From Floricoccus tropicus (GTDB taxonomy: Bacteria; Bacillota; Bacilli; Lactobacillales; Streptococcaceae), in contig NZ_MKIR01000001.1 of the NCBI RefSeq assembly GCF_001832905.1, forward strand, positions 214,855 through 246,854: 32,000 nt of DNA. Direction: 5' to 3'. The notes beneath the pieces are model-generated. The model was not told where the DNA came from. It was given only the letters and a program-made list of their open reading frames with translations, and made no database searches. Made by a program: the position numbers and the translations under genes. Positions 5,807-31,274 of the stretch are shown here, piece by piece (position 1 is the stretch's first letter; every line of letters starts with the position of its first letter).

Positions 5807-7126
5807 TCAATCAACAAATTCGAATACAAAATTACCAATTCGAACTATATCACCGTCACGAGCTCCTCTTTCTCGTAGAGCCTCATCGACTCCCAAACCA
5901 CGTAATTGACGTGCGAACTTCATAGCTGATTCATCATGATCAAGATTTGTCATATTGAATAATTTTTCAAGTTTTTCACCTGATAAAATCCATGAAGCGT
6001 CATCATCACGTGCAATTTCAAATCCTGGTCCTTCTTCATTGAAGCCATAGTATGCTTCTTCAGCTTCTTGAAGAAATTCTTCTTCATCATATACAGGAAA
6101 TTCTGGTGTTGTTTCTAATAATTCTGCTGTGGCTTCAAGCATTGGTTGTAAACCTTGACGTGTAATACCACTAACAGGGAAAATTAAAGGTTTATCTTCA
6201 AATTCCTCGTAATTTGCATAAAGTTTTTCCTTAAATTCTTTAAGATTTTCTTCAGAATCAGGCATATCCATTTTGTTTGCCACAATAATTTGTGGACGTT
6301 CTAGAAGTCTTAAGTTATAAGTTTCTAATTCATCGTTAATTGCTTTGTAGTCTTCATATGGATCACGTCCTTCCATACCGCTCATATCAATCACATGTAA
6401 AAGAACACGTGTTCTTTCAATATGGCGGAGGAATTGTGTACCCAATCCAACACCTTGGCTAGCTCCTTCAATAAGTCCAGGCATATCTGCTACTACGAAA
6501 CTTTCTCCATCCCCTACACGGACCATTCCGATATTTGGTACGAGAGTTGTAAAGTGGTAAGCACCAATTTTTGGTCTAGCATTTGAAATAACACTTAATA
6601 GTGTTGATTTTCCAACTGATGGGAATCCTACTAAACCAACATCAGCTAAGACACGAAGTTCTAATAAAAGACTTCTATCTTGACCTGGTTCACCATTTTC
6701 TGCAATTTCTGGTGCAGGATTTCTAGGTGTCGCAAAACGAATATTACCTCGTCCACCACGTCCACCTTTAGCCGCTACATACTCTTGACCGTTCGTAAGC
6801 AAATCAGCAAGTATTTTTCCTGTATCAGGATCTTTTACAGTTGTACCTTGAGGAACTGAAACGATTAAATCAGCCGATCCACGTCCGTGCATCCCCTTAT
6901 TCATTCCATTTTCACCTGGTTTTGCTTTAAAATTACGGTTATAGCGAAAATCCATAAGGGTTCTTAAGCCTTCATCAACTTTGAAGATGACATTACCACC
7001 TTTTCCACCATCACCACCGGCAGGACCACCATCTGGAACATATTTTTCACGACGGAAGGCAACCATTCCGTTACCACCATTTCCGCCTTTAACATCTACT
7101 TTTGCTGTATCTAAAAACATTGACAT
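5807..7126 (-). CDS. obg: GTPase Obg/CgtA
   Basis: 439 aa with a glycine-rich Obg fold ([15 protein letters not shown]), G domain GFPSVGKST / DMPG / NKMD, and a C-terminal OCT-type domain. Confidence 0.97.
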
Positions 7127-7226
7127 GTATATTTTTCCTCTAAATCTTATAGTTAACTAATTATAACATAAAAGCTGAAACTTCTCATCTCTTGGGATAT
7201 AATGACTTTTTATTTATTGTGAAATT

Positions 7227-7257
7227 AAAAACTTTCCGCTTAATACAGAAAGTTTTT
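7227..7257 (-). terminator. rho-independent terminator after glmM
   Basis: Perfect 10-bp stem AAAAACTTTC (7227-7236) / GAAAGTTTTT (7248-7257) with an 11-nt loop. A/T runs on both sides suggest it could act bidirectionally. Confidence 0.7.
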
Positions 7258-7272
7258 AAATATATTTATTAC

Positions 7273-8625
7273 TTAAATTCCAATTTCGTTTTTAACAACT
7301 TCTACAATTGTATCAACATAATAATCTACTTCTTCATCAGTTGGTGCTTCTGCCATTACACGAAGTAATGGTTCTGTACCACTTGGACGTACGAGAATAC
7401 GCCCATTACCAGCCATTTTTTCTTCCATCTGGCCGATAATTTCAGCAATTGCAGGAACATCCATTGCCTTTGATTTCATTGAGTTTTCAACTCGAACATT
7501 AACAAGTTTTTGCGGGTAAATCTTAACTTCTCCAGCAAGTTCGCTAAGTGTTTTTCCAGATTCACGCATTACCTTCATTAATTGAATTGCAGAAAGCATA
7601 CCATCACCAGTTGTATTATAATCTAAGAAGATCATGTGACCGCTTTGCTCTCCACCAAAATTATAATTATTTTTCTTCATTTCCTCAACAACATAACGAT
7701 CGCCTACTGCAGTGATAACACTTGTAATTTCTTTACTATCTAATGCTTTATGGAAACCAAGATTACTCATAACAGTAGTCACAACTGTATTTTGAGCAAG
7801 TTTTCCTGACTCAGATAAATACTTACCAACAATATACATAATTCTATCACCATCAACAATTTGACCATTTTCGTCAACGGCAATTAATCGATCTCCATCA
7901 CCATCAAAAGCAAGACCGAGATCTGAATTGTTTTTAAGCACTTCTTTTGCTAAATTTTCTGGATGAGTTGAACCAACTCCATCATTAATATTTAAACCAT
8001 CCGGTGTTTCGCCAATAACATCGAAATCTGTGCCTAAATCTGAAAATACATCACGTACACTTGTACTTGTTGCACCATTAGCTGCATCAAGAGTTACATT
8101 ATAATCTTCGAATAATCCATCAGCAGTTGATACAAGAAATTCATTGTACTTACGAACAGCTTCAGTGTAATCATGAGCTTTCCCTAATCCTTTTGCAGAA
8201 GGACGAGGTAGTTTATCTTCTTCCGCATCGAGCAAAGCTTCAATTTCAAGTTCTTGATCATCTTCAAGTTTAAACCCATCACCACCAAAGAATTTAATAC
8301 CATTATCTAATGCCGGGTTATGACTTGCTGAAATCATTACACCAGCACTTGCACCTTCTTTTTTAACAAGGTAGGCAACACCTGGAGTTGCAATTACTCC
8401 AAGTGTATATACTTCAATACCAACACTTAAAAGCCCTGCAACTAAAGCACTTTCTAACATTTGCCCAGAAATTCTTGTATCTCGAGCAACATATACCTTC
8501 GGAGTTCCAGTCTCATGTTGACTCAATACATAACCACCAAATCTTCCAAGTCTAAAGGCCAATTCTGGTGTTAATTCAACATTTGCCTCTCCACGAACTC
8601 CATCTGTTCCAAAATATTTTCCCAT
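7273..8625 (-). CDS. glmM: phosphoglucosamine mutase
   Basis: 450 aa starting [12 protein letters not shown], with phosphoserine loop [11 protein letters not shown] and metal site DGDGDR. It is the third gene of the cdaA-cdaR-glmM operon. Confidence 0.97.
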
Positions 8626-10530: not shown

Positions 10531-13500
10531 CTATTCGCCCTTCGTTGCTCTTTTTGCCGCACGTTCAGCTCGTCTTGCTGCCCTTCTAGCTTCTGCCTCT
10601 GGGTCAACAACTCGCTCTCGTTTTTCACGTCTTACTGGTTTCTCAACCTTTTCTGAATCTACTTTGACTGTTCCTTTAGCTTTTTCTTCTTTAGCAAGAA
10701 ATTTTTCAGCATCGCCAGACATCCTTGCATAACGTAAAAACTTGCGTCTTGCATCTTGTTTCGTCTTTTCAAACAATAACTCTGCTTTGCCAGGATTAAG
10801 TGCTTTTAAGCTTGAAAAACGAACTTGCTGTAACATGAAATCTGTCATTTGATCAAAGTTTGGTTTTTTGAAATCTAAAGTTAGAGGATTTTTACCTTTT
10901 TCTTCTAGGTCTGGATTATATCTATAAAGTTGCCAATAACCTGAATCAACTGCCTCTTTTGCTTCAGTCAGTGTCTTACCCATTCCCCCACGTAAACCAT
11001 GGGAGATACAAGGAGTATAGGCAATAATTAGGGAAGGACCATTATGTCTTTCTGCTTCCTCAAATGCTTTTATAGTTTGCATTTGATTTGCTCCACTTGC
11101 AATTTGAGCCACATAAACATTACCATATGTCATTGCCATGAAGCCAAGATCTTTTTTAGCTGCTTCTTTACCGGCTGCTGAGAATTTTTCGATTGCACTT
11201 GCGGGGGTAGCCTTTGAAACCTGTCCACCAGTATTAGCATAAACCTCATTATCCATAACTAATAAGTTGACATCAGCACCACTTGCAATTACATGGTCAA
11301 TACCACCATAACCAATGTCATATGCCCAGCCATCTCCACCAATCATCCATTGACTTGGTTTAACAAATTGATCCTGATGCTTGATAATTTCTTTAAAAGC
11401 ATCATTATCTGAGACATCTTTCAATGCTGATTTTAATTTTTCAGCTCTCTGTCTTGTTCCTTGCGACTCAAAGCGATGCTCAATCCAGTCCTTCATCAAA
11501 TTAGCAAGTTCTTCAGATGCAAAAGGAATCAACTCTTCCATTTGAGATGCTAATTTATCTCTGCGTGCTACACTCGCAAGCCACATTCCATAACCAAATT
11601 CCGCATTATCTTCTAATAAAGAATTCGACCAAGCTGGACCTTGTCCATCTTCATTTGTGGTATAAGGAGTTGCAGGAGCAGCTCCTCCCCATATTGAAGA
11701 ACATCCAGTAGCATTAGCAATCATCATCCTATCACCAAACATTTGTGTTAGTAATTTTACATAAGGAGTTTCACCACAACCTGAACATGCACCAGAAAAT
11801 TCTAGTAATGGTTTATTAAACTGACTTCCAAGAACTGTATTCTCCCTTGCTGGATTCTCTTTTTGTTTTAGAGTCATTGAAAATGCCCAATTTATGGTTT
11901 GGTCATTAACTTCTTCATAAGGCTTCATGACTAGGGCACCTTTTTCTTTGGCAGGACATGCCTCAACACAAAGTCCACAACCCGTGCAGTCTTCAACAGA
12001 AACTTGTATTCGATACATGAGTCCGTCTTTACCTTTAAAATCTTTTACATGGTACCCATCAGGTGCTTGATTCATTTCATCTTCATCAATTAAGAATGGA
12101 CGAATCGCAGCATGAGGACATACAAATGAACATTGATTACATGCCGTACATGCTTCAGCATTCCAAACAGGAACTTCAAGGGCCACTCCGCGTTTTTCAA
12201 ATGCTGCGGTACCAACAGGTATGCGACCGTCAGTCATATTATTTACAACTAAATCACCAACAGAAAGCTCATCACCTTCTTGTGAGTTGACACTATTAAG
12301 AATTTGGAAAACATATTTGTTCTCCCCCTTGTTACCTTTTTTCTTTTCTGGTGCTTGTGCATATTTCCAAGATTCAGGAACTTCAACCTTATGTAATCTT
12401 TCAGCAGCTAGGTCCATTGCTAAGTGGTTACTCTCAACAATTTTCATTGATTTTCTTGCATAAGAATCTAGTGCATCTTGTTTTAAAATACTCATTGCCT
12501 GATCAAATGGCATGATATTTGTTAATTTAAAGAAGGCAACTTGCATTGCAGTATTTATTCTTCTTCCAAGACCCACCTCACGAGCAATATTTACAGCATC
12601 AAGAGTATAAAATTCAATATTATTTTCAGCAATATACCTTTTAAACTTACTTGGTAAATGCTTATCTAATTGTTCATCACTCCATAAAGTGTTTAGTAAG
12701 AATGTCCCTCCAGGTTTAAGCCCCTTTAAAACGTCATACTGATGGAGGTAATTTGAAGCATGAACAGCTACAAAGTCAGCACTTTGTATTAGATATGTTG
12801 ATTTTATAGGTGTACTTCCAAACCTTAAATGACTAACAGTTAGTCCACCTGATTTCTTAGAGTCATATGAAAATGCACCTTGTATATATTTATCGGTATT
12901 ATTACCAATAATCTTTATAGCAGATTTATTTGCACCAACAGTACCATCACTACCAAATCCCCAGAATTTAGCTTGATAGGTTGTAGATGGAGTCAAGTCA
13001 ATTTCTTCACCCAAGTCAAGTGATAAATTAGTCACATCATCCTTTATACCTACTGTAAATAATGTTTTAGATTTTTCCTTTAAAAGCTCATCATATACAG
13101 CAATTATTTGTTGCGGTGTTGTATCCTTACTTCCGATTCCGTAACGACCACCAATTACTTTTACATCATGATCAAATAATGCACTTTTAACATCAAGATA
13201 AAGCGGCTCACCATTACTTCCAGGTTCTTTTGTCCTATCTAAGACAGCAATATTTTTTGCAGTTTTAGGTAAATGTTCTATAAAATTTTCAACAGGGAAT
13301 GGACGATATAAATGAATATTAATAAAACCGACCTTGCGTCCATTTACATTTAAATAGTCAACAACTTGCTCTATTGTTTGTCCAACACTACCTAATGATA
13401 CAATAACTTCAGTTGCTTCAGGATCACCATAATAATTAACTAAATCATAACTTGTTCCGCGAAGTTCATTAATTTTTCTCATATATTTTTGAACTATAGC

Positions 13501-14211
13501 TGGAGTCGCTTCGTAATATGAGTTTACTGTTTCTCTTTGTTGAAAATGAATGTCAGGGTTTTGATTGCTTCCAGATACTGAAGGATGATCCGGGTTCATT
13601 GCTCGATTTCTAAACTCTTCAAGCTTTTCTTCATTAATCATTTCTGCAAGATCTTCATAGTTAATTACATCAATTTTTTGTAATTCATGACTTGTCCTAA
13701 ATCCATCAAAAAAATTGAGGAAGGGAACACTGGCCTCAATTGTTGCTAAATGTGCAACAGCTGATAAGTCCATAACTTCCTGAACACTCGCCTCTGCAAG
13801 CATTGCATAACCAGTTGTTCTTGCAGTCATAATATCGCTTTGATCTCCAAATATATTCAAAGCATTTGTAGTAACAGCTCTCGCAGCTACATGTATTACA
13901 CTTGGTAATAATTCACCAGCAATTTTAAATAAGCTTGGAATCATTAGAAGTAAGCCTTGACTTGCTGTGTATGTAGTTGCTAAAGCACCAGCTTTTAATG
14001 CACCATGTACCGCACCTGCAGCACCTGCTTCACTCTGCATCTCAGTTATTTTTACTGGTTGACCCCAAATATTTTTTTTACCTTGACTTGACCATTCGTC
14101 AGTATACTCAGCCATCGGGGAACTTGGAGTAATGGGGTATATTGCTGATATTTCTGAAAAAGCATAGGCAATATGTGCTGCAGCCATATTCCCATCCATA
14201 GTTTTTTTCAT
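10531..14211 (-). CDS. nifJ: pyruvate:ferredoxin (flavodoxin) oxidoreductase, single-chain PFOR
   Basis: Two 4Fe-4S ferredoxin motifs (CTACNQCSFVCPHAAIRP, CTGCGLCVEACP) and a TPP site GGDGWAYDIGYGG; total length is above 1200 aa. The start was trimmed from 14280 to ATG 14211 (MKKTMDGNMAAAH) behind GAGGAGG. A 60-aa K/R/E/A-rich tail lies at the C-terminus. Confidence 0.95.
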   Translation of the reverse strand: MKKTMDGNMAAAHIAYAFSEISAIYPITPSSPMAEYTDEWSSQGKKNIWGQPVKITEMQSEAGAAGAVHGALKAGALATTYTASQGLLLMIPSLFKIAGELLPSVIHVAARAVTTNALNIFGDQSDIMTARTTGYAMLAEASVQEVMDLSAVAHLATIEASVPFLNFFDGFRTSHELQKIDVINYEDLAEMINEEKLEEFRNRAMNPDHPSVSGSNQNPDIHFQQRETVNSYYEATPAIVQKYMRKINELRGTSYDLVNYYGDPEATEVIVSLGSVGQTIEQVVDYLNVNGRKVGFINIHLYRPFPVENFIEHLPKTAKNIAVLDRTKEPGSNGEPLYLDVKSALFDHDVKVIGGRYGIGSKDTTPQQIIAVYDELLKEKSKTLFTVGIKDDVTNLSLDLGEEIDLTPSTTYQAKFWGFGSDGTVGANKSAIKIIGNNTDKYIQGAFSYDSKKSGGLTVSHLRFGSTPIKSTYLIQSADFVAVHASNYLHQYDVLKGLKPGGTFLLNTLWSDEQLDKHLPSKFKRYIAENNIEFYTLDAVNIAREVGLGRRINTAMQVAFFKLTNIMPFDQAMSILKQDALDSYARKSMKIVESNHLAMDLAAERLHKVEVPESWKYAQAPEKKKGNKGENKYVFQILNSVNSQEGDELSVGDLVVNNMTDGRIPVGTAAFEKRGVALEVPVWNAEACTACNQCSFVCPHAAIRPFLIDEDEMNQAPDGYHVKDFKGKDGLMYRIQVSVEDCTGCGLCVEACPAKEKGALVMKPYEEVNDQTINWAFSMTLKQKENPARENTVLGSQFNKPLLEFSGACSGCGETPYVKLLTQMFGDRMMIANATGCSSIWGGAAPATPYTTNEDGQGPAWSNSLLEDNAEFGYGMWLASVARRDKLASQMEELIPFASEELANLMKDWIEHRFESQGTRQRAEKLKSALKDVSDNDAFKEIIKHQDQFVKPSQWMIGGDGWAYDIGYGGIDHVIASGADVNLLVMDNEVYANTGGQVSKATPASAIEKFSAAGKEAAKKDLGFMAMTYGNVYVAQIASGANQMQTIKAFEEAERHNGPSLIIAYTPCISHGLRGGMGKTLTEAKEAVDSGYWQLYRYNPDLEEKGKNPLTLDFKKPNFDQMTDFMLQQVRFSSLKALNPGKAELLFEKTKQDARRKFLRYARMSGDAEKFLAKEEKAKGTVKVDSEKVEKPVRREKRERVVDPEAEARRAARRAERAAKRATKGE

Positions 14212-14288
14212 CTTATTCTTTTCCTCCTCTAGAGGGTCTTTGATATTATATGTTGGTATTTTACTGAATAAAATCAGCATTCTTATCT

Positions 14289-20950: not shown

Positions 20951-21056
20951 CTATAGTCACTTAAAAATAGATTAATACATCGTTGACTCATCTCGATGAA
21001 CGCTAGTTCTATCATCAATTCGTCGCCTTGTCTTATTTCTATTTTAATCAACTATA
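20951..21056 (-). repeat. compact (106-bp) copy of a TIR-bounded, ORF-less palindromic (MITE/BOX-like) element
   Basis: Its reverse complement aligns end-to-end with 25560-25844 once three 60-bp blocks are skipped in the long copy. The ends are CTATAGTCACTTAAAAATAG and CTATTTTAATCAACTATA, forming imperfect ~19-bp terminal inverted repeats. It starts immediately after the ecfT stop codon. Confidence 0.8.
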
Positions 21057-21064
21057 ATAATAAT

Positions 21065-21097
21065 AAAAATCTCCCAAATAATTTGAGAGATTTTTTT
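21065..21097. terminator. bidirectional rho-independent terminator (ECF operon / amylase)
   Basis: AAAAATCTC (21065-21073) pairs with GAGATTTTT (21087-21095). An A-run precedes it and a T-run follows. It sits between convergent genes and abuts the amylase stop codon at 21099. Confidence 0.7.
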
Positions 21098-21098
21098 G

Positions 21099-22793: not shown

Positions 22794-23789
22794 ATGCTAA
22801 AACTCGCAATAATAGGTACAGGCTGGATTTCTCGTGCTTTCATTGATGCAGCCCTATCTACAGAAAAATATGAACTCACTTCTGTCTATTCACGTAGACT
22901 GTCAAGCGCTGAAGACTTTACAAGAGATTTTGACAATGTAAAATTATTTGATAATCTGGATAATTTTTTCGAAGATGATTTTGATGTTGTCTATATAGCA
23001 AGTCCAAATTCGCTTCACTTCTCTCATGCTCAGCTTGCTCTTAAAAACAAGAAAAATGTCATTGTAGAAAAACCAGCATTTTCAAATCCGACTGAATTAG
23101 CTGAAATCATTAAAACTGCAGAAGAAAATAATGTTTTAATTTTTGAAGCTGCCAGAAATATTCATGAAAAATCATTTACTATAATCAAGAATTTCTTAGA
23201 TGATAAAACAATTACTGGTGCCGACTTTACTTATGCTAAGTACTCTTCTAAAATGACGGCTTTGCTTGCAGGAGATGTTCCAAATACTTTTTCTACCAAG
23301 TTTTCTGGCGGAGCACTTGCTGATTTAGGTGTTTATGCTCTTTATGCAGCAGCCTACTTATTTGGTCAGTCAAATCTAGCTTTATATCAAGGAATTATTC
23401 TTGATAGTGGAGTTGATATAAATGGTATTGGTTGTCTAGAATATGATAATTTTAATTTGGCTCTAAAGACTGGGAAAAATCTTACAAGTAACCTTCCATC
23501 TGAAATCTACACAACTGATGGAACTTTGACATTAGATGGGATTAATGCTGTTTCTTCAGCTGTATTTGAAACTTTCGATGGTCAAGTTACTGAGTTAGAC
23601 GTCTCTGCACTTGAAAATCCGATGGCTGAGGAAGCTTGGGATTTTGCTGAAATCTTGTTGGACCCAACAAGTGAGAAAAACACTAAAGAATATGAAGAAC
23701 TTTTGCATCTTGCTCAAATCGTGGCTAACACTAGCTATGAGATGAGGAAAAATGCTGGAATTAAATTTGAGGCTGATAAAAATGATTGA
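22794..23789 (+). CDS. Gfo/Idh/MocA family NAD(P)-dependent oxidoreductase
   Basis: Rossmann N-terminus KLAIIGTGWISRAF and the EKP motif (VIVEKPAF). The start was moved from 22779 to ATG 22794, 8 nt after GGAGG. Confidence 0.87.
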   Translation: MLKLAIIGTGWISRAFIDAALSTEKYELTSVYSRRLSSAEDFTRDFDNVKLFDNLDNFFEDDFDVVYIASPNSLHFSHAQLALKNKKNVIVEKPAFSNPTELAEIIKTAEENNVLIFEAARNIHEKSFTIIKNFLDDKTITGADFTYAKYSSKMTALLAGDVPNTFSTKFSGGALADLGVYALYAAAYLFGQSNLALYQGIILDSGVDINGIGCLEYDNFNLALKTGKNLTSNLPSEIYTTDGTLTLDGINAVSSAVFETFDGQVTELDVSALENPMAEEAWDFAEILLDPTSEKNTKEYEELLHLAQIVANTSYEMRKNAGIKFEADKND

Positions 23790-24896: not shown

Positions 24897-25547
24897 ATGA
24901 ATAATAAAGAAAAATGGACTTTTAGGATTGTAACCTTAGTTTACTGCCTCTACATGCACTATTATGGTGGACCATTTTACTTTATGATTCTAAATGTTTT
25001 TCTAGCTTATATTCCAATTGAAATAAGTTTCCATTTAAACATTAATAATGGTTGGAAATTCTGGCTACTTGCAGCTTTTTGGCTCCTATTTTATCCAAAC
25101 GCTCCTTATCTCTTAACTGATTTTATTCATCTAGTACATCTTCCTATTTACGATGGCTATTCGATTGAAATTAGTAAGAATATGAACTATTGGTGGGATT
25201 ACTCACTTATGGGTCTTGGAATCATTGGTTTCACAATAGTTGGAATGGATTCTATAAATACTATTAGTAGACAATTGCTATATAAATTCAAAGGATGGCA
25301 AGTTATTACATTTCAAATTATTGTTCAATTTCTTTCATCTCTTGCAATTTATGTAGGTCGCTTCGACCGTTTGCATAGTGTTTATATTTTTGCAGAACCA
25401 GTTAACACCATTAAGTTAATATTCTTTACCTGGTCACAAAATAAAATTCAGTTCATTCTAATAATGACTTTTCTACAAATAGGATTATTTTATTTCATAA
25501 ATTTTGTAAGAAAAAATACAAAAAAGAACCTCTCAACTAATAATTGA
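24897..25547 (+). CDS. DUF1361-like polytopic membrane protein
   Basis: 216 aa with about 6 TM helices and the motif YPNAPYLLTDFIHL, which I associate with DUF1361. The start lies 2 nt after the helicase stop. The last codons lie inside the terminator hairpin. Confidence 0.65.
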   Translation: MNNKEKWTFRIVTLVYCLYMHYYGGPFYFMILNVFLAYIPIEISFHLNINNGWKFWLLAAFWLLFYPNAPYLLTDFIHLVHLPIYDGYSIEISKNMNYWWDYSLMGLGIIGFTIVGMDSINTISRQLLYKFKGWQVITFQIIVQFLSSLAIYVGRFDRLHSVYIFAEPVNTIKLIFFTWSQNKIQFILIMTFLQIGLFYFINFVRKNTKKNLSTNN

Positions 25548-25558
25548 GAGGTTTTTTT
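25527..25558 (+). terminator. rho-independent terminator after the DUF1361 gene
   Basis: Perfect 9-bp stem AACCTCTCA (25527-25535) / TGAGAGGTT (25545-25553) followed by T7. The TGA stop codon forms part of the 3' arm. Confidence 0.85.
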
Positions 25559-25583
25559 ATATAGTTGATTAAAAATAGAAATA

Positions 25584-25643
25584 CCTTCGTTTTACTACGC
25601 TGTCGATTACACTTAAATAAGCGAGCTTATAGTGTAAGTCGCA
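25584..25643 (+). repeat. hairpin module 1 (60 bp) of the expanded element
   Basis: CCTTCGTTTTACTACGCTGT leader followed by the imperfect hairpin CGATTACACTTAAATAAGC-GA-GCTTATAGTGTAAGTCG. It is absent from the compact copy. Confidence 0.75.
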
Positions 25644-25652
25644 AGACAAGGC

Positions 25653-25712
25653 ACTTCGCTTCGCTACGATGTCCATAGAACTTAAATTGCTAAAGCAATT
25701 AGTTCTAATGGC
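25653..25712 (+). repeat. hairpin module 2 (60 bp) of the expanded element
   Basis: ACTTCGCTTCGCTACGATGT leader followed by the hairpin CCATAGAACTTAAATTGC-TAAA-GCAATTAGTTCTAATGG. It is absent from the compact copy. Boundaries are ambiguous by 3 nt because of GGC microhomology. Confidence 0.75.
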
Positions 25713-25752
25713 GACGAAAGATGATAGAACTAGAGTTCATCGAGATGAGTCA

Positions 25753-25812
25753 CTACGCCTTGCTCCGATGTCGATTGTACTTATATAAGCAAGCTTATTA
25801 GTATAAATCGCA
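25753..25812 (+). repeat. hairpin module 3 (60 bp) of the expanded element
   Basis: CTACGCCTTGCTCCGATGT leader followed by the hairpin CGATTGTACTTATATAAGC-AA-GCTTATTAGTATAAATCG. It is absent from the compact copy. CA microhomology occurs at the junctions. Confidence 0.75.
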
Positions 25813-25846
25813 ACGATGTATTAGACTATTTTTAAGTGACGATAAA

Positions 25847-29633: not shown

Positions 29634-31259
29634 ATGTTTTCTCTTAAGAAAGTTTTTAGAAGTGGATATTTTTGGTTATCCATTCTTTCTATCACTGTTG
29701 TTGCTATCGCGGCTGCATTAGTTCCATTAGAAACAGCTAATATCTTGAACTATGCCCTTGCTAAGGATATAAATACACTTATCATATGGAGTATTGTTCT
29801 TTTAGCTACTATTGCTATTTTGCTAATATTTGAGTCATTTAGTCAATACTTCTCTGTTAAATATAGCAATAAATTTAAAGCAGATATGGTAAACCACTTA
29901 ACAATTTCCATTAGCAAAAAAGACTGGTACTCTTTTCAAAAGAAAGGGACAGTTGACTACTTATCATATTATAACAATGATATTGAAGTATTAGAGGAGG
30001 ACTATTTCCAATCTATTCTCAAAAGCTACCAAGGATTTATAGCATTGATTGCAAATATATCTGTCCTCTTTACATTAGATAAATTATTAATGGTGGTGGT
30101 TGTAATATCAAGTATAATCCCAATGCTAATACCTTTCATTTTTCAAAAACACCTTGCTAAGCTTAAGAGTGAAAATATGTTTCAAATCACCAACTTTAAC
30201 AATAAATTAAGTGACTTTCTCGATGGTTTTCAATTGATGAAAGGTTTTAAGAAAGAGGATAAATTCTTAAATCGTCTAAATTTGGCAACAGAAAGTATGA
30301 ACGAGAGCAAAGAAAAACATGAAAAGGCGGATGTTACTTCAAATCTTATTACTGGTATAGCTTTTTATATTTCTTTTATTGCAAGCTTAATTATTGGGGC
30401 CTATCGTATTGCAACAGGAACTACTAGCGTTGGTGCTGTAACTGGTATCTTGCAAATTTCTGATAATCTTATCTATCCAATCAATTTGATTTCTAGTCAG
30501 ACTAAGACTCTTATGGCAACAAAGACAATTAGAAATGACTTTAAGAAACTATGTAGTTTTGATGAAAAAACAAATAATTATGAGGACTTGAATGATAAAC
30601 AAAATGCCATTATTATCGAAAACTTAAGTTTCGGATATAATGACACTAAAATTCTAAATAATGTTAATTTTACTTTTGAAAAAGATAAAAAATACTTATT
30701 AATAGGTCCTAGTGGTCAAGGAAAATCAACATTACTTCATCTTATAAGTGGAGATATTGCTGATTTTTCTGGTAAAGTACTGGTAAATAAAGACATTAAA
30801 AATGGAATACGTCTGATTCCACAAAAATCTCTGTTAATTCGAGATAGTATTATAAATAATCTTACACTCTTCAGTGATAAACCACTTGGAAATGTGAAAA
30901 ATACTCTTGAGAAATTTAAACTTAATAAATTTTCAAGCAATGAAAAACTTCAAGCTGAATTTCCAAATAATGTTAGCCCCTCAGGTGGTGAGGTACAAAG
31001 AATGAGTATAAGTCGAACTCTTCTCGAGCAACCTCAGCTACTTCTTCTTGACGAAGTTACTTCAGCCCTTGATAAAGAGAATCAAAAGTTTGTTGAAGTA
31101 GAATTGCTAAAGAATTTTAAAGGAACCGTTATTAGTGTATCTCACAACTATTCTGAAGAAAGTCTTAATTATTATGACTATGTAGTTGAAATTAATGATT
31201 CAAAAATATCAGTAATAAATAAAACTGACTTAGAAAAAAACAAGTCTCATAATAATTGA
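29634..31259 (+). CDS. half-size ABC exporter (fused N-terminal 6-TM permease and C-terminal ATPase)
   Basis: 541 aa with Walker A GPSGQGKST, Q-loop IPQKS, signature-like SPSGGEVQRMSISR, Walker B LLLLDEVTSALD and H-loop VSHN. No partner permease, peptidase domain or cognate peptide gene is seen in the window. Confidence 0.85.
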   Translation: MFSLKKVFRSGYFWLSILSITVVAIAAALVPLETANILNYALAKDINTLIIWSIVLLATIAILLIFESFSQYFSVKYSNKFKADMVNHLTISISKKDWYSFQKKGTVDYLSYYNNDIEVLEEDYFQSILKSYQGFIALIANISVLFTLDKLLMVVVVISSIIPMLIPFIFQKHLAKLKSENMFQITNFNNKLSDFLDGFQLMKGFKKEDKFLNRLNLATESMNESKEKHEKADVTSNLITGIAFYISFIASLIIGAYRIATGTTSVGAVTGILQISDNLIYPINLISSQTKTLMATKTIRNDFKKLCSFDEKTNNYEDLNDKQNAIIIENLSFGYNDTKILNNVNFTFEKDKKYLLIGPSGQGKSTLLHLISGDIADFSGKVLVNKDIKNGIRLIPQKSLLIRDSIINNLTLFSDKPLGNVKNTLEKFKLNKFSSNEKLQAEFPNNVSPSGGEVQRMSISRTLLEQPQLLLLDEVTSALDKENQKFVEVELLKNFKGTVISVSHNYSEESLNYYDYVVEINDSKISVINKTDLEKNKSHNN

Positions 31260-31270
31260 GACTTGTTTTT
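31234..31270. terminator. bidirectional rho-independent terminator (ABC exporter / ftsX)
   Basis: Perfect 10-bp stem AACAAGTCTC (31239-31248) / GAGACTTGTT (31258-31267), with an A-run before and a T-run after. The TGA stop of the ABC gene forms part of the 3' arm. Confidence 0.85.
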
Positions 31271-31274
31271 ATTA

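What the first reader, a model, noticed from the sequence alone, without database searches (positions are those of the whole stretch)
25560..25844. Unannotated TIR-bounded palindromic element in two size forms (106 bp at 20951-21056 and 285 bp here)
The reverse complement of 20951-21056 aligns over its whole length with 25560-25844. By eye only a handful of mismatches or indels occur in about 105 backbone positions, provided three blocks are skipped in the long copy. Both copies end in imperfect ~19-bp terminal inverted repeats (TATAGT-NNN-TTAAAA(A)TAG). Neither contains an ORF, and both sit in convergent intergenic regions. This architecture matches MITE/BOX/ERIC-type bacterial repeats, but I do not recognise the sequence as BOX, RUP, SPRITE or another named family. 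Two copies in 32 kb suggest a genome-wide family.
Basis: seen in the sequence. Interest (0 to 1): 0.72.

Follow-up and report, generated by a model that had tools for sequence, protein, structure and literature searches.

The report
Small mobile DNA repeat in Floricoccus
The two stretches are copies of a previously undescribed miniature transposable element of the flower bacterium Floricoccus, which inserts at TA dinucleotides and comes in several lengths because it gains or loses internal hairpin units; it is a new example of a well-known kind of bacterial junk/regulatory repeat rather than a new kind of thing.

Summary
Window 20952-21056 (105 nt) and 25560-25844 (285 nt) are two copies of one repeat. 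The long copy is the short backbone plus three 58-59-nt hairpin modules.

The window matches Floricoccus tropicus: its oxidoreductase is 100% identical. The sister species F. penangensis carries the same family at 10 or more further loci, with 98-100% identity among short copies. Five size forms exist.

Empty sites at two insertion loci, in four sequences, show that insertion adds 103 nt: a 101-nt element (TAG...CTA) plus a duplicated TA. One insertion splits a GNAT gene in strain HibF3 only, where flanks are 98.4% identical to the other strain, so transposition was recent.

Comparing three genomes at the two window loci shows that size forms also change in place. Recombination between modules M1 and M3 removed 170 nt.

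The element is therefore a non-autonomous MITE. Its TA target resembles pneumococcal RUP and IS630/Tc1-type elements. Its modular hairpin content resembles BOX, but it shows no sequence similarity to BOX, to Rfam families, or to the plasmid and phage collections searched. No partner transposase was found.

Verdict: a new member of a known kind, of modest interest.

The parts
20952..20953 (.). TA target-site duplication (one copy) of the short element
   Evidence: Every copy is flanked by TA on both sides. Empty sites at other loci carry a single TA.
20954..21054 (-). Short (A-form) element, 101 nt, TAG...CTA, with no hairpin modules. It is 100% identical to three F. penangensis copies.
   Evidence: It folds as one long imperfect hairpin, -26.6 kcal/mol, z = -4.3.
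20954..20970 (-). Terminal inverted repeat of the short copy (family right end), TAGTCACTTAAAAATAG on the + strand
21039..21054 (-). Terminal inverted repeat of the short copy (family left end), the reverse complement of TAGTTGATTAAAATAG
21055..21056 (.). TA target-site duplication (second copy) of the short element
21065..21095 (-). Terminator hairpin of the alpha-amylase-family gene, 9 nt from the element's left end. This is context and not part of the element.
25527..25553 (+). Terminator hairpin of the DUF1361 gene, followed by a T-tract that runs into the target TA. This is context.
25560..25561 (.). TA target-site duplication (one copy) of the long element
25562..25842 (+). Long (C-form) element, 281 nt: the backbone plus modules M1, M2 and M3. 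The right terminus is mutated (CGA instead of CTA).
   Evidence: The orthologous copy in F. penangensis ML061-4 is L033 12768-13054.
25562..25583 (+). Left end including the TIR TAGTTGATTAAAAATAG
25584..25642 (+). Hairpin module M1 (59 nt)
   Evidence: It is absent from the A and B forms. It is 89% identical to M3. The hairpin is kept by compensatory changes.
25643..25652 (+). Backbone segment AAGACAAGGC between M1 and M2
25653..25710 (+). Hairpin module M2 (58 nt)
25711..25752 (+). Core apical hairpin of the backbone. It contains the 18-mer GTTCATCGAGATGAGTCA used for the genome scan.
25753..25811 (+). Hairpin module M3 (59 nt). It sits at the mirror position of M2 in the palindrome.
25812..25842 (+). 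Right end including the TIR
25843..25844 (.). TA target-site duplication (second copy) of the long element

Best explanation
The two stretches are copies of a non-autonomous transposable element (MITE) family of the genus Floricoccus. Shown: the unit that moves is a 101-nt imperfect palindrome (TAG...CTA) with about 17-nt terminal inverted repeats, and it inserts into a TA dinucleotide and duplicates it. Inferred: a TA duplication is the hallmark of IS630/Tc1-mariner-type DDE transposases, so the element is most likely moved in trans by such an enzyme, as proposed for pneumococcal RUP. That enzyme was not found. Shown: longer forms carry one to three extra 58-59-nt hairpin modules (M1, M2, M3). 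These are paralogues of each other, and more loosely of the core hairpin. They give at least five size forms: ends only (62 nt); core only (105 nt); an M1/M3 hybrid only (116-117 nt); M2, core and M3 (225 nt); and all four units (285-287 nt). Shown: size forms also change in place. M1 and M3 are direct repeats 170 nt apart, and recombination or slippage between them has deleted the intervening DNA independently at two loci. Inferred: the precise loss or gain of single modules comes from hairpin-stimulated slippage or from gene conversion between copies. The short form is the one that spread most recently. Any effect on neighbouring genes is untested. Some copies lie in 5' leaders or between a stop codon and its terminator, so those are probably co-transcribed.
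For: Family and dispersal:
- An exact 18-mer from the core hits 9 loci on 5 contigs of F. penangensis HibF3.
- The alignment of 14 copies shows shared ends and five size forms.
- Short copies at different loci are 98-100% identical.

Insertion with TA duplication:
- The HibF3 copy L017 6935-7039 splits a GNAT gene. Removing 103 nt restores a 152-aa frame that aligns without gaps to the intact homologue P0121.
- The empty sites read GAGGAATATAGGTCACA in metagenome contigs L040/L041 and in F. penangensis ML061-4 (L045). The ML061-4 flank is 98.4% identical over 6.9 kb.
- The L009 copy truncates an M20 amidohydrolase to 379 aa. The TA model predicted an original C-terminus ...NIKLDI. Intact 381-aa proteins end exactly so (P0241; the F. 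tropicus protein P0363 is also 381 aa). The empty site is AAAAT-TA-GACATT.

Change of form in place:
- At window site 2, F. tropicus and ML061-4 carry the 285/287-nt form. HibF3 carries a 117-nt M1/M3 hybrid.
- At window site 1, F. tropicus has the 105-nt form, ML061-4 a 116-nt M1/M3 hybrid, and HibF3 no element.

Structure and coding:
- Both forms fold as long hairpins (z = -3.7 to -4.8).
- The module hairpin has 18 pairs, 7 of them with compensatory changes between modules.
- There is no coding capacity.
Against: - No transposase or IS with matching ends was found in about 135 kb of Floricoccus DNA. The link to IS630-type enzymes rests on the TA duplication alone. Correia elements also duplicate TA and have no assigned transposase.
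- The copy number in the window's own species is unknown, because the F. tropicus genome could not be searched.
- The F. tropicus short copy at site 1 is 100% identical to the F. penangensis copies, although the genomes differ by about 7%. The same site holds a module-bearing form in ML061-4. Simple vertical descent with deletions does not explain this well, so conversion, replacement or transfer must be invoked.
- The module boundaries have only 1-3 nt of flanking direct repeat. That is weak support for repeated precise slippage.
Confidence: 0.85

Rival explanations
1. The repeats are genes or cis-elements for a structured RNA, such as a small RNA, a terminator or attenuator, or a leader, that has been duplicated around the genome. 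The hairpin modules would then be variable expansion stems.
For: Predicted folding is strong on both strands. Compensatory changes keep the module hairpin. Several copies lie where they must be transcribed: between the T-box terminator and the hisS start (L010), directly upstream of ribosome-binding sites (L002, L023, L030), and between a stop codon and its terminator (window site 1, L003, L009).
Against: No Rfam family matches at gathering or permissive thresholds. Copies occur in either orientation relative to neighbouring genes, and one lies inside a coding gene. Near-identical copies are present or absent between strains with a TA duplication, which is the behaviour of a transposon. No consistent promoter was found. 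A palindrome folds equally on both strands whatever its function. An RNA-level side effect of a mobile element is not excluded.
Confidence: 0.07
2. The element belongs to the pneumococcal BOX lineage, diverged in another genus of Streptococcaceae. Its ends would be equivalent to boxA and boxC, and its hairpin modules equivalent to boxB.
For: It shares the modular architecture with variable numbers of self-folding internal units, and the length changes at fixed loci, as described for BOX in PMC3049150. It shares the 10-mer CAAGGCGACG with boxA. The host family is the same.
Against: A real A1C1 BOX copy was fetched from S. pneumoniae (L035 4411-4515). It shows no significant similarity beyond that 10-mer: the local-alignment score was reached by 11 of 500 shuffles for the short form and by 387 of 500 for the long form. 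The 10-mer also lies in the opposite orientation relative to the nearest end. The family HMM gave only insignificant hits (E of 0.65 or more) in about 73 kb of fetched S. pneumoniae/S. mitis loci, much of it overlapping copies of one region.
Confidence: 0.05
3. The hairpin modules are themselves small mobile or self-amplifying units that insert into specific sites of the carrier element. On this view the long form is a nested composite rather than the ancestral form.
For: The three modules are paralogous, with M1 and M3 89% identical. They have sharp, reproducible boundaries, and intermediate forms exist (M2 and M3 without M1 in L023 and L030). M2 and M3 occupy mirror positions in the palindrome.
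Against: No solo module was seen outside an element in about 135 kb. All changes that could be polarised by the three-genome comparison are losses. The modules have no terminal repeats or duplications of their own beyond 1-3 nt.
Confidence: 0.1

Closest known systems
RUP (Repeat Unit of Pneumococcus), a 107-bp MITE of Streptococcus pneumoniae proposed to be mobilised by IS630-Spn1
   Same: Same host family (Streptococcaceae) and almost the same size (101 nt plus TA, against 107 bp). Both have terminal inverted repeats, insert at TA with duplication, lack coding capacity, have near-identical copies that suggest recent mobility, and are mostly intergenic (PMC2229807, PMC3049150).
   Different: Sequence relatedness could not be tested, because no RUP sequence was available. 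No partner IS was identified here. RUP is a simple element, whereas this family carries 0-3 extra hairpin modules. RUP is reported to favour IS elements as targets, whereas these copies favour TA sites just downstream of terminators.
BOX elements of S. pneumoniae and S. mitis, and BOX-type elements of S. suis
   Same: Both are composite, with conserved terminal parts that pair with each other plus a variable number of internal units that fold on their own. Length varies between strains at the same locus through gain or loss of internal units. The size range is similar (BOX 67-637 bp) (PMC3049150).
   Different: There is no significant sequence similarity to a real BOX copy. The modules here sit at three fixed positions around a core hairpin rather than in one tandem boxB array.
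Correia elements (NEMIS) of Neisseria
   Same: Both have TIRs, a TA duplication, and two main size classes that differ by an internal segment of about 50 bp. Both are often co-transcribed with neighbouring genes. No cognate transposase is known (PMC3049150 background, PMC2229807 Table 1; the size-class detail is from my own knowledge).
   Different: The host phylum is unrelated and no sequence relation is expected (not tested). Correia size variation is a single internal deletion, not a set of paralogous hairpin modules.
ERIC sequences of Enterobacteriaceae
   Same: Both are imperfect palindromes of about 127 bp that exist in shorter and longer versions, through internal deletions and through insertions at specific internal sites. 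Both have TA at the termini (PMC2229807 Table 1; the size-variant detail is from my own knowledge).
   Different: The host and sequence differ. ERIC copies are old and largely immobile, whereas this family shows a strain-specific insertion.

Membership tests
MITE (bacterial miniature inverted-repeat transposable element) | Terminal inverted repeats | tested here: met
   TAGTTGATTAAAATAG against the reverse complement TAGTCACTTAAAAATAG, present in all full copies.
MITE (bacterial miniature inverted-repeat transposable element) | Small size and no transposase gene | tested here: met
   Copies are 62-287 nt, and the longest mechanical ORF is 39 aa.
MITE (bacterial miniature inverted-repeat transposable element) | Multiple dispersed copies in a genome | tested here: met
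   9 loci on 5 contigs of F. penangensis HibF3 carry the exact core 18-mer, and there are further core-less copies. The count in F. tropicus itself is unknown.
MITE (bacterial miniature inverted-repeat transposable element) | Target-site duplication shown by filled versus empty sites | tested here: met
   Empty sites at two insertion loci, in four sequences (L040/L041, L045, L044), carry one TA where the filled sites carry TA-element-TA. The insertion is 103 nt.
MITE (bacterial miniature inverted-repeat transposable element) | An autonomous IS in the host with matching terminal repeats | tested here: inconclusive
   None was found in about 135 kb of Floricoccus DNA.
IS630/Tc1-mariner-mobilised elements (RUP-like) | Insertion at TA with a 2-bp TA duplication | tested here: met
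   At L009/L044 the shared junction is exactly 2 nt.
IS630/Tc1-mariner-mobilised elements (RUP-like) | TIR similarity to an IS630-family IS, or sequence similarity to RUP | not tested
   Neither the RUP consensus nor the IS630-Spn1 ends were available in the tools or in the papers read.
BOX elements | Sequence similarity to the boxA, boxB or boxC modules | tested here: not met
   Tested against a real A1C1 BOX copy (L035 4411-4515). Only a 10-mer is shared, and the score lies within the range of shuffles for the long form. The family HMM gave no significant hit in the fetched pneumococcal and S. mitis loci. boxB itself was not available.
BOX elements | Terminal modules plus a variable number of internal self-folding modules; length polymorphism at fixed loci | tested here: met
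   Five size forms with 0-4 hairpin units. There are form changes at both window loci among three genomes.
Any curated RNA family (Rfam 15) | Covariance-model match | tested here: not met
   Only tRNA-Arg reaches a gathering score in the window. Permissive hits fall on the neighbouring terminator, not on the element.

The most novel reading that the evidence does not exclude
The family may not be an ordinary passenger of an IS630-type enzyme. Two readings remain open. (a) It may be directed to TA sites immediately downstream of intrinsic terminators by a structure- or sequence-specific targeting mechanism. Here 7 of 11 targets lie within 14 nt of a terminator stem, and terminal-repeat-like strings lie next to two sites. 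(b) Its hairpin modules may be gained and lost by a dedicated hairpin-processing or conversion mechanism, giving rapid locus-by-locus switching of element form. That switching could tune read-through or stability of neighbouring transcripts. Both would operate in genomes where no matching transposase has been seen.
Probability: 0.12. Interest if true: 0.55.

Novelty: new member of a known kind. Interest (0 to 1): 0.33.

Why it matters
The result gives Floricoccus, a little-studied genus of flower- and bee-associated lactic acid bacteria, its first described interspersed repeat.

It is an unusually clean natural example of a bacterial MITE. Empty and filled sites, a strain-specific insertion into a gene, and the origin of size variants in place can all be read directly from three genomes.

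In practical terms, the copies are unannotated. They truncate or split genes (an M20 amidohydrolase and a GNAT acetyltransferase) and sit in leaders and operon spacers, so they matter for annotation and strain typing. They may also affect expression of the neighbouring genes.

The element changes no general concept. TA-targeting MITEs and modular repeats are both known in Streptococcaceae.

Tried and rejected
- **Chance similarity.** Rejected by E-values down to 1e-51 and by 12 loci.
- **Homology to BOX.** I recalled that the BOXA1R primer shares CAAGGCGACG with the element. I fetched a real BOX copy through a pneumococcal homologue. The similarity is limited to that 10-mer and is not significant, so this was rejected.
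- **Rfam.** Gathering and permissive searches found nothing on the element.
- **Plasmid and phage collections.** Distant blastn gave no match.
- **Metagenome scan with the 21-nt left end.** One chance hit inside a coding region (L034). The viral scan found none.
- **Sequence strings in the paper library.** None found.
- **Obtaining the RUP sequence.** Papers and a supplement did not print it. A de novo look for a RUP-like element in the pneumococcal loci found nothing.
- **Looking up the window's own proteins to reach the source genome.** They are not on record.
- **More distant relatives.** Streptococcaceae ESL0729 and an ENA contig, with 64-67% protein identity, carry no copy in the syntenic 21 kb.
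- **Partner IS.** No long dispersed repeat and no second TIR pair in about 135 kb.
- **Exact path to the HibF3 state at site 1.** Simple one-step deletion models do not reproduce the sequence, so this is unresolved.
- **First terminator-proximity script.** It missed bidirectional terminators and was replaced.

Full report
**1. The observation**

- On the family's forward strand the short copy (window 20952-21056, minus orientation) reads TATAGTTGATTAAAATAGAAATA-AGACAAGGC-GACGAATTGATGATAGAACTAGCGTTCATCGAGATGAGTCA-ACGATGTATTAATCTATTTTTAAGTGACTATA.
- The long copy (25560-25844) has the same backbone, with about 8 differences in 105 positions.
- The long copy is interrupted by three blocks: M1 (25584-25642, 59 nt), M2 (25653-25710, 58 nt) and M3 (25753-25811, 59 nt).
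- The repeat finder reports ungapped matches of 33 nt at 97% and 34 nt at 91%.
- Both copies have imperfect terminal inverted repeats of about 17-19 nt. Both fold as long hairpins (z-scores -3.7 to -4.8).
- Both hold only mechanical ORFs of 39 aa or fewer.
- Both lie between convergent genes. Site 1 is ECF-transporter T component versus alpha-amylase-family gene. Site 2 is DUF1361 gene versus tRNA-Arg(CCT) and glutathione peroxidase.

**2. Whose genome, and is it a family?**

- One exact scan of species-representative genomes with the core 18-mer GTTCATCGAGATGAGTCA gave 32 stretches. Nine of them lie on five contigs of Floricoccus penangensis HibF3. The other 23 are scattered over unrelated phyla and are most likely chance matches or a shared coding string; they were not inspected.
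- All nine HibF3 hits are full copies of the same element at different loci.
- The window itself matches the sister species F. tropicus. Its oxidoreductase (22794-23789) is 100% identical to the F. tropicus protein and 95% identical to those of the two F. penangensis strains.
- F. tropicus genes are not on record in the contig index. Its genome-wide copy number is therefore unknown.
- No copy was seen in syntenic regions of more distant Streptococcaceae with 64-67% protein identity.

**3. Anatomy of the family**

Fourteen copies from twelve independent loci align into five forms.

| Form | Content | Length | Where seen |
|---|---|---|---|
| A | backbone only | 105 nt including the two TAs | seven copies, 98-100% identical to each other; window site 1 is 100% identical to three HibF3 copies |
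| B | backbone plus M2 and M3 | 225 nt | L023, L030 |
| C | backbone plus M1, M2 and M3 | 285-287 nt | window site 2, its orthologue in ML061-4, and L002 |
| D | ends plus a single M1/M3 hybrid module, no core | 116-117 nt | site 1 in ML061-4, site 2 in HibF3 |
| E | degenerate ends-only remnant | 62 nt | between two identical tRNA genes (L015 7580-7641) |

- The modules are paralogues. M1 and M3 are 89% identical, and M2 shares the leader (CTACGATGTC) and the hairpin plan.
- The module hairpin has 18 predicted pairs, 7 of which keep pairing through changes on both sides between module types.
- The core hairpin has a similar leader. The long form can therefore be read as an array of four hairpin units between two terminal segments.
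- M2 and M3 sit at mirror positions, 33 nt from either end.

**4. It is an insertion, and it duplicates TA**

Every copy is bounded by TA-TAG...CTA-TA, with unrelated sequence beyond. Two loci allowed a direct test.

*(a) The GNAT gene.*
- In HibF3 the copy L017 6935-7039 lies inside a GNAT acetyltransferase gene.
- Removing 103 nt (TAG...CTA plus one TA) restores a 152-aa frame.
- That frame aligns without gaps, at 89% identity, to the intact protein P0121 across the junction ...YVEEEYRSQ....
- The DNA of the intact genes reads GAGGAATATAGGTCACA. HibF3 reads GAGGAATA|TATAG...CTATA|GGTCACA.
- This holds in two metagenome contigs (L040/L041) and in F. penangensis ML061-4 (L045).
- The ML061-4 flank is 98.4% identical to HibF3 over 6.9 kb. 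The insertion is therefore specific to one strain and recent.
- A 105-nt element without duplication is excluded, because the empty site keeps one TA.

*(b) The amidohydrolase gene.*
- The copy L009 6591-6695 supplies the stop codon of an M20 amidohydrolase, which is 379 aa in both F. penangensis strains.
- From the TA model I predicted an original ending ...NIKLDI.
- The intact 381-aa protein P0241 ends exactly so, and the F. tropicus protein (P0363) is also 381 aa.
- The empty site is AAAAT-TA-GACATT followed by the pre-existing terminator. Here the junction overlap is exactly 2 nt.

So the mobile unit is 101 nt and the target duplication is TA.

**5. Size forms also change in place**

I fetched the same region from ML061-4 (L033) and HibF3 (L046). 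This gives three genomes for each window locus.
- **Site 2.** F. tropicus and ML061-4 carry the C form, about 97% identical to each other and diverging much like the flanks. HibF3 carries a 117-nt D form whose single module is M1 on its 5' side and M3 on its 3' side. This is a 170-nt deletion by recombination or slippage between the M1 and M3 direct repeats.
- **Site 1.** F. tropicus has the A form. ML061-4 has a D form with a different M1/M3 crossover point. HibF3 has no element, but carries the string CAACTATA 4 nt from the TA. That string equals the element's last six bases plus TA.
- I read the HibF3 state as a deletion or excision scar. No single-step model reproduces the sequence, so the path is unresolved.
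- The D form cannot derive from the A form by deletion. The ancestor at site 1 must therefore have carried modules. The present A form in F. tropicus, identical to the F. penangensis consensus although the genomes differ by about 7%, needs three precise module losses, gene conversion, or replacement. This part is inference.

**6. Where it lands**

- After excising the elements in silico, 7 of 11 target TAs lie within 14 nt downstream of a terminator-like stem.
- Among the 9 targets my crude gene mask scores as non-genic, 6 do so, against 6.5% of non-genic TAs in the same sequences. The binomial p is about 5e-6.
- The terminator finder and the gene mask are my own and crude. Selection is not separated from target choice.
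- Six of the seven have the left end next to the T-tract, which is not significant.
- Four copies lie 8-31 nt upstream of a ribosome-binding site or start codon. One of these sits between the T-box terminator and the hisS start. Such copies must be transcribed with their neighbours, but no effect was tested.
- Consensus scans show no promoter in the short copy. The long copy holds one weak promoter-like match (25606-25633, 9 of 12), no more than shuffles give.

**7. Mechanism**

- *Shown:* insertion with TA duplication, presence and absence between strains, lack of coding capacity, near-identity of the A copies, and recombinational collapse between internal repeats.
- *Inferred from established knowledge:* a 2-bp TA duplication is characteristic of IS630/Tc1-mariner DDE transposases, which recognise the terminal inverted repeats and cut and paste the element. 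Pneumococcal RUP is interpreted this way (PMC2229807, PMC3049150). Internally deleted and ends-only derivatives, and terminal fragments next to copies (L007, HibF3 site 1), are what interrupted repair after excision would leave.
- *Not shown:* the enzyme. About 135 kb of Floricoccus DNA holds no other dispersed repeat and no second pair of matching ends.

**8. Comparison with what is known**

- The element works like RUP in its target, size and host family.
- It is built like BOX, with terminal parts plus a variable number of self-folding internal units and length changes at fixed loci.
- Membership of BOX was tested against a real A1C1 copy fetched from S. pneumoniae (L035 4411-4515) and failed. 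Only the 10-mer CAAGGCGACG is shared. The score was reached by 11 of 500 shuffles for the short form and by 387 of 500 for the long form.
- Sequence relation to RUP could not be tested.
- There is no Rfam family, no plasmid or phage match and no printed sequence in the paper library.
- The two Floricoccus genome papers I searched by term do not mention transposases or insertion sequences, and use 'repeat' only for CRISPR.
- Correia and ERIC elements offer further precedents for TA ends and discrete size classes.

**9. Verdict**

It is a previously undescribed MITE family of Floricoccus: a new member of a known kind. Its merit is that insertion, target duplication, recent activity and the origin of size variants can all be read directly from sequence comparisons. 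Interest is modest (0.33). The more novel possibilities are terminator-directed targeting and a dedicated mechanism for module turnover. Neither is excluded, and neither is supported beyond what is stated above.

Noticed in passing
L010 7560-7790 (F. penangensis HibF3): A short copy sits between a T-box leader (GGTGGCACCACG motif plus terminator) and the hisS start codon, 31 nt from the ATG. It must therefore be part of the hisS 5' leader transcript.
   Followed up: partly
L015 7497-7748: Two identical 74-nt tRNA genes lie in tandem, with a degenerate 62-nt ends-only remnant of the element between them.
   Followed up: partly
L007 3562-3578: The right end of a full short copy is followed directly by an extra 17-nt fragment identical to the element's left end (GTTGATTAAAATA...). 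This could be a nested insertion or a leftover of an older copy.
   Followed up: no
L046 4261-4306 (HibF3, orthologue of window 20951-21098): The site is without the element but carries CAACTATA (element terminus plus TA) 4 nt from the target TA. The neighbouring ATA-repeat also differs from both filled alleles. It is a probable excision or deletion scar whose origin I could not reconstruct.
   Followed up: partly
L017 around 7040-7330 (HibF3 GNAT gene, minus strand): Besides the element insertion, the GNAT reading frame carries an in-frame stop where homologues have Trp (…IPQ*YLVV…). The gene is a pseudogene twice over, unless this is a sequencing error.
   Followed up: no
L003 2630-2669 and L015 3636-3678: The terminator hairpins next to the left ends of two unrelated copies resemble each other (87% over 159 nt including the element). 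This could reflect a common terminator type or a slightly longer transposed unit.
   Followed up: no
L036 13152-13178 (S. mitis): A 27-nt string is 81% identical to the element's right terminal repeat (CTAGTCACTTGAAAATAAC...), with E = 0.067. It is probably chance, but it could be a relic of a related terminal repeat.
   Followed up: no
window 10531-14280 (minus strand): This is a full-length pyruvate:ferredoxin oxidoreductase gene (1249 aa) in a member of Streptococcaceae. It is also present in F. penangensis and in strain ESL0729.
   Followed up: no
window 25522-25560 and 31234-31272: Two terminator hairpins share a 39-nt pattern at 74% identity (AAAAAGAAC..AATAATTGAGA..TTTTTAT). It is a likely convergent terminator shape rather than a repeat family.
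   Followed up: no
L045 13142-14868 (ML061-4): A 1.7-kb stretch inside the purine-biosynthesis cluster has no called gene.
   Followed up: no
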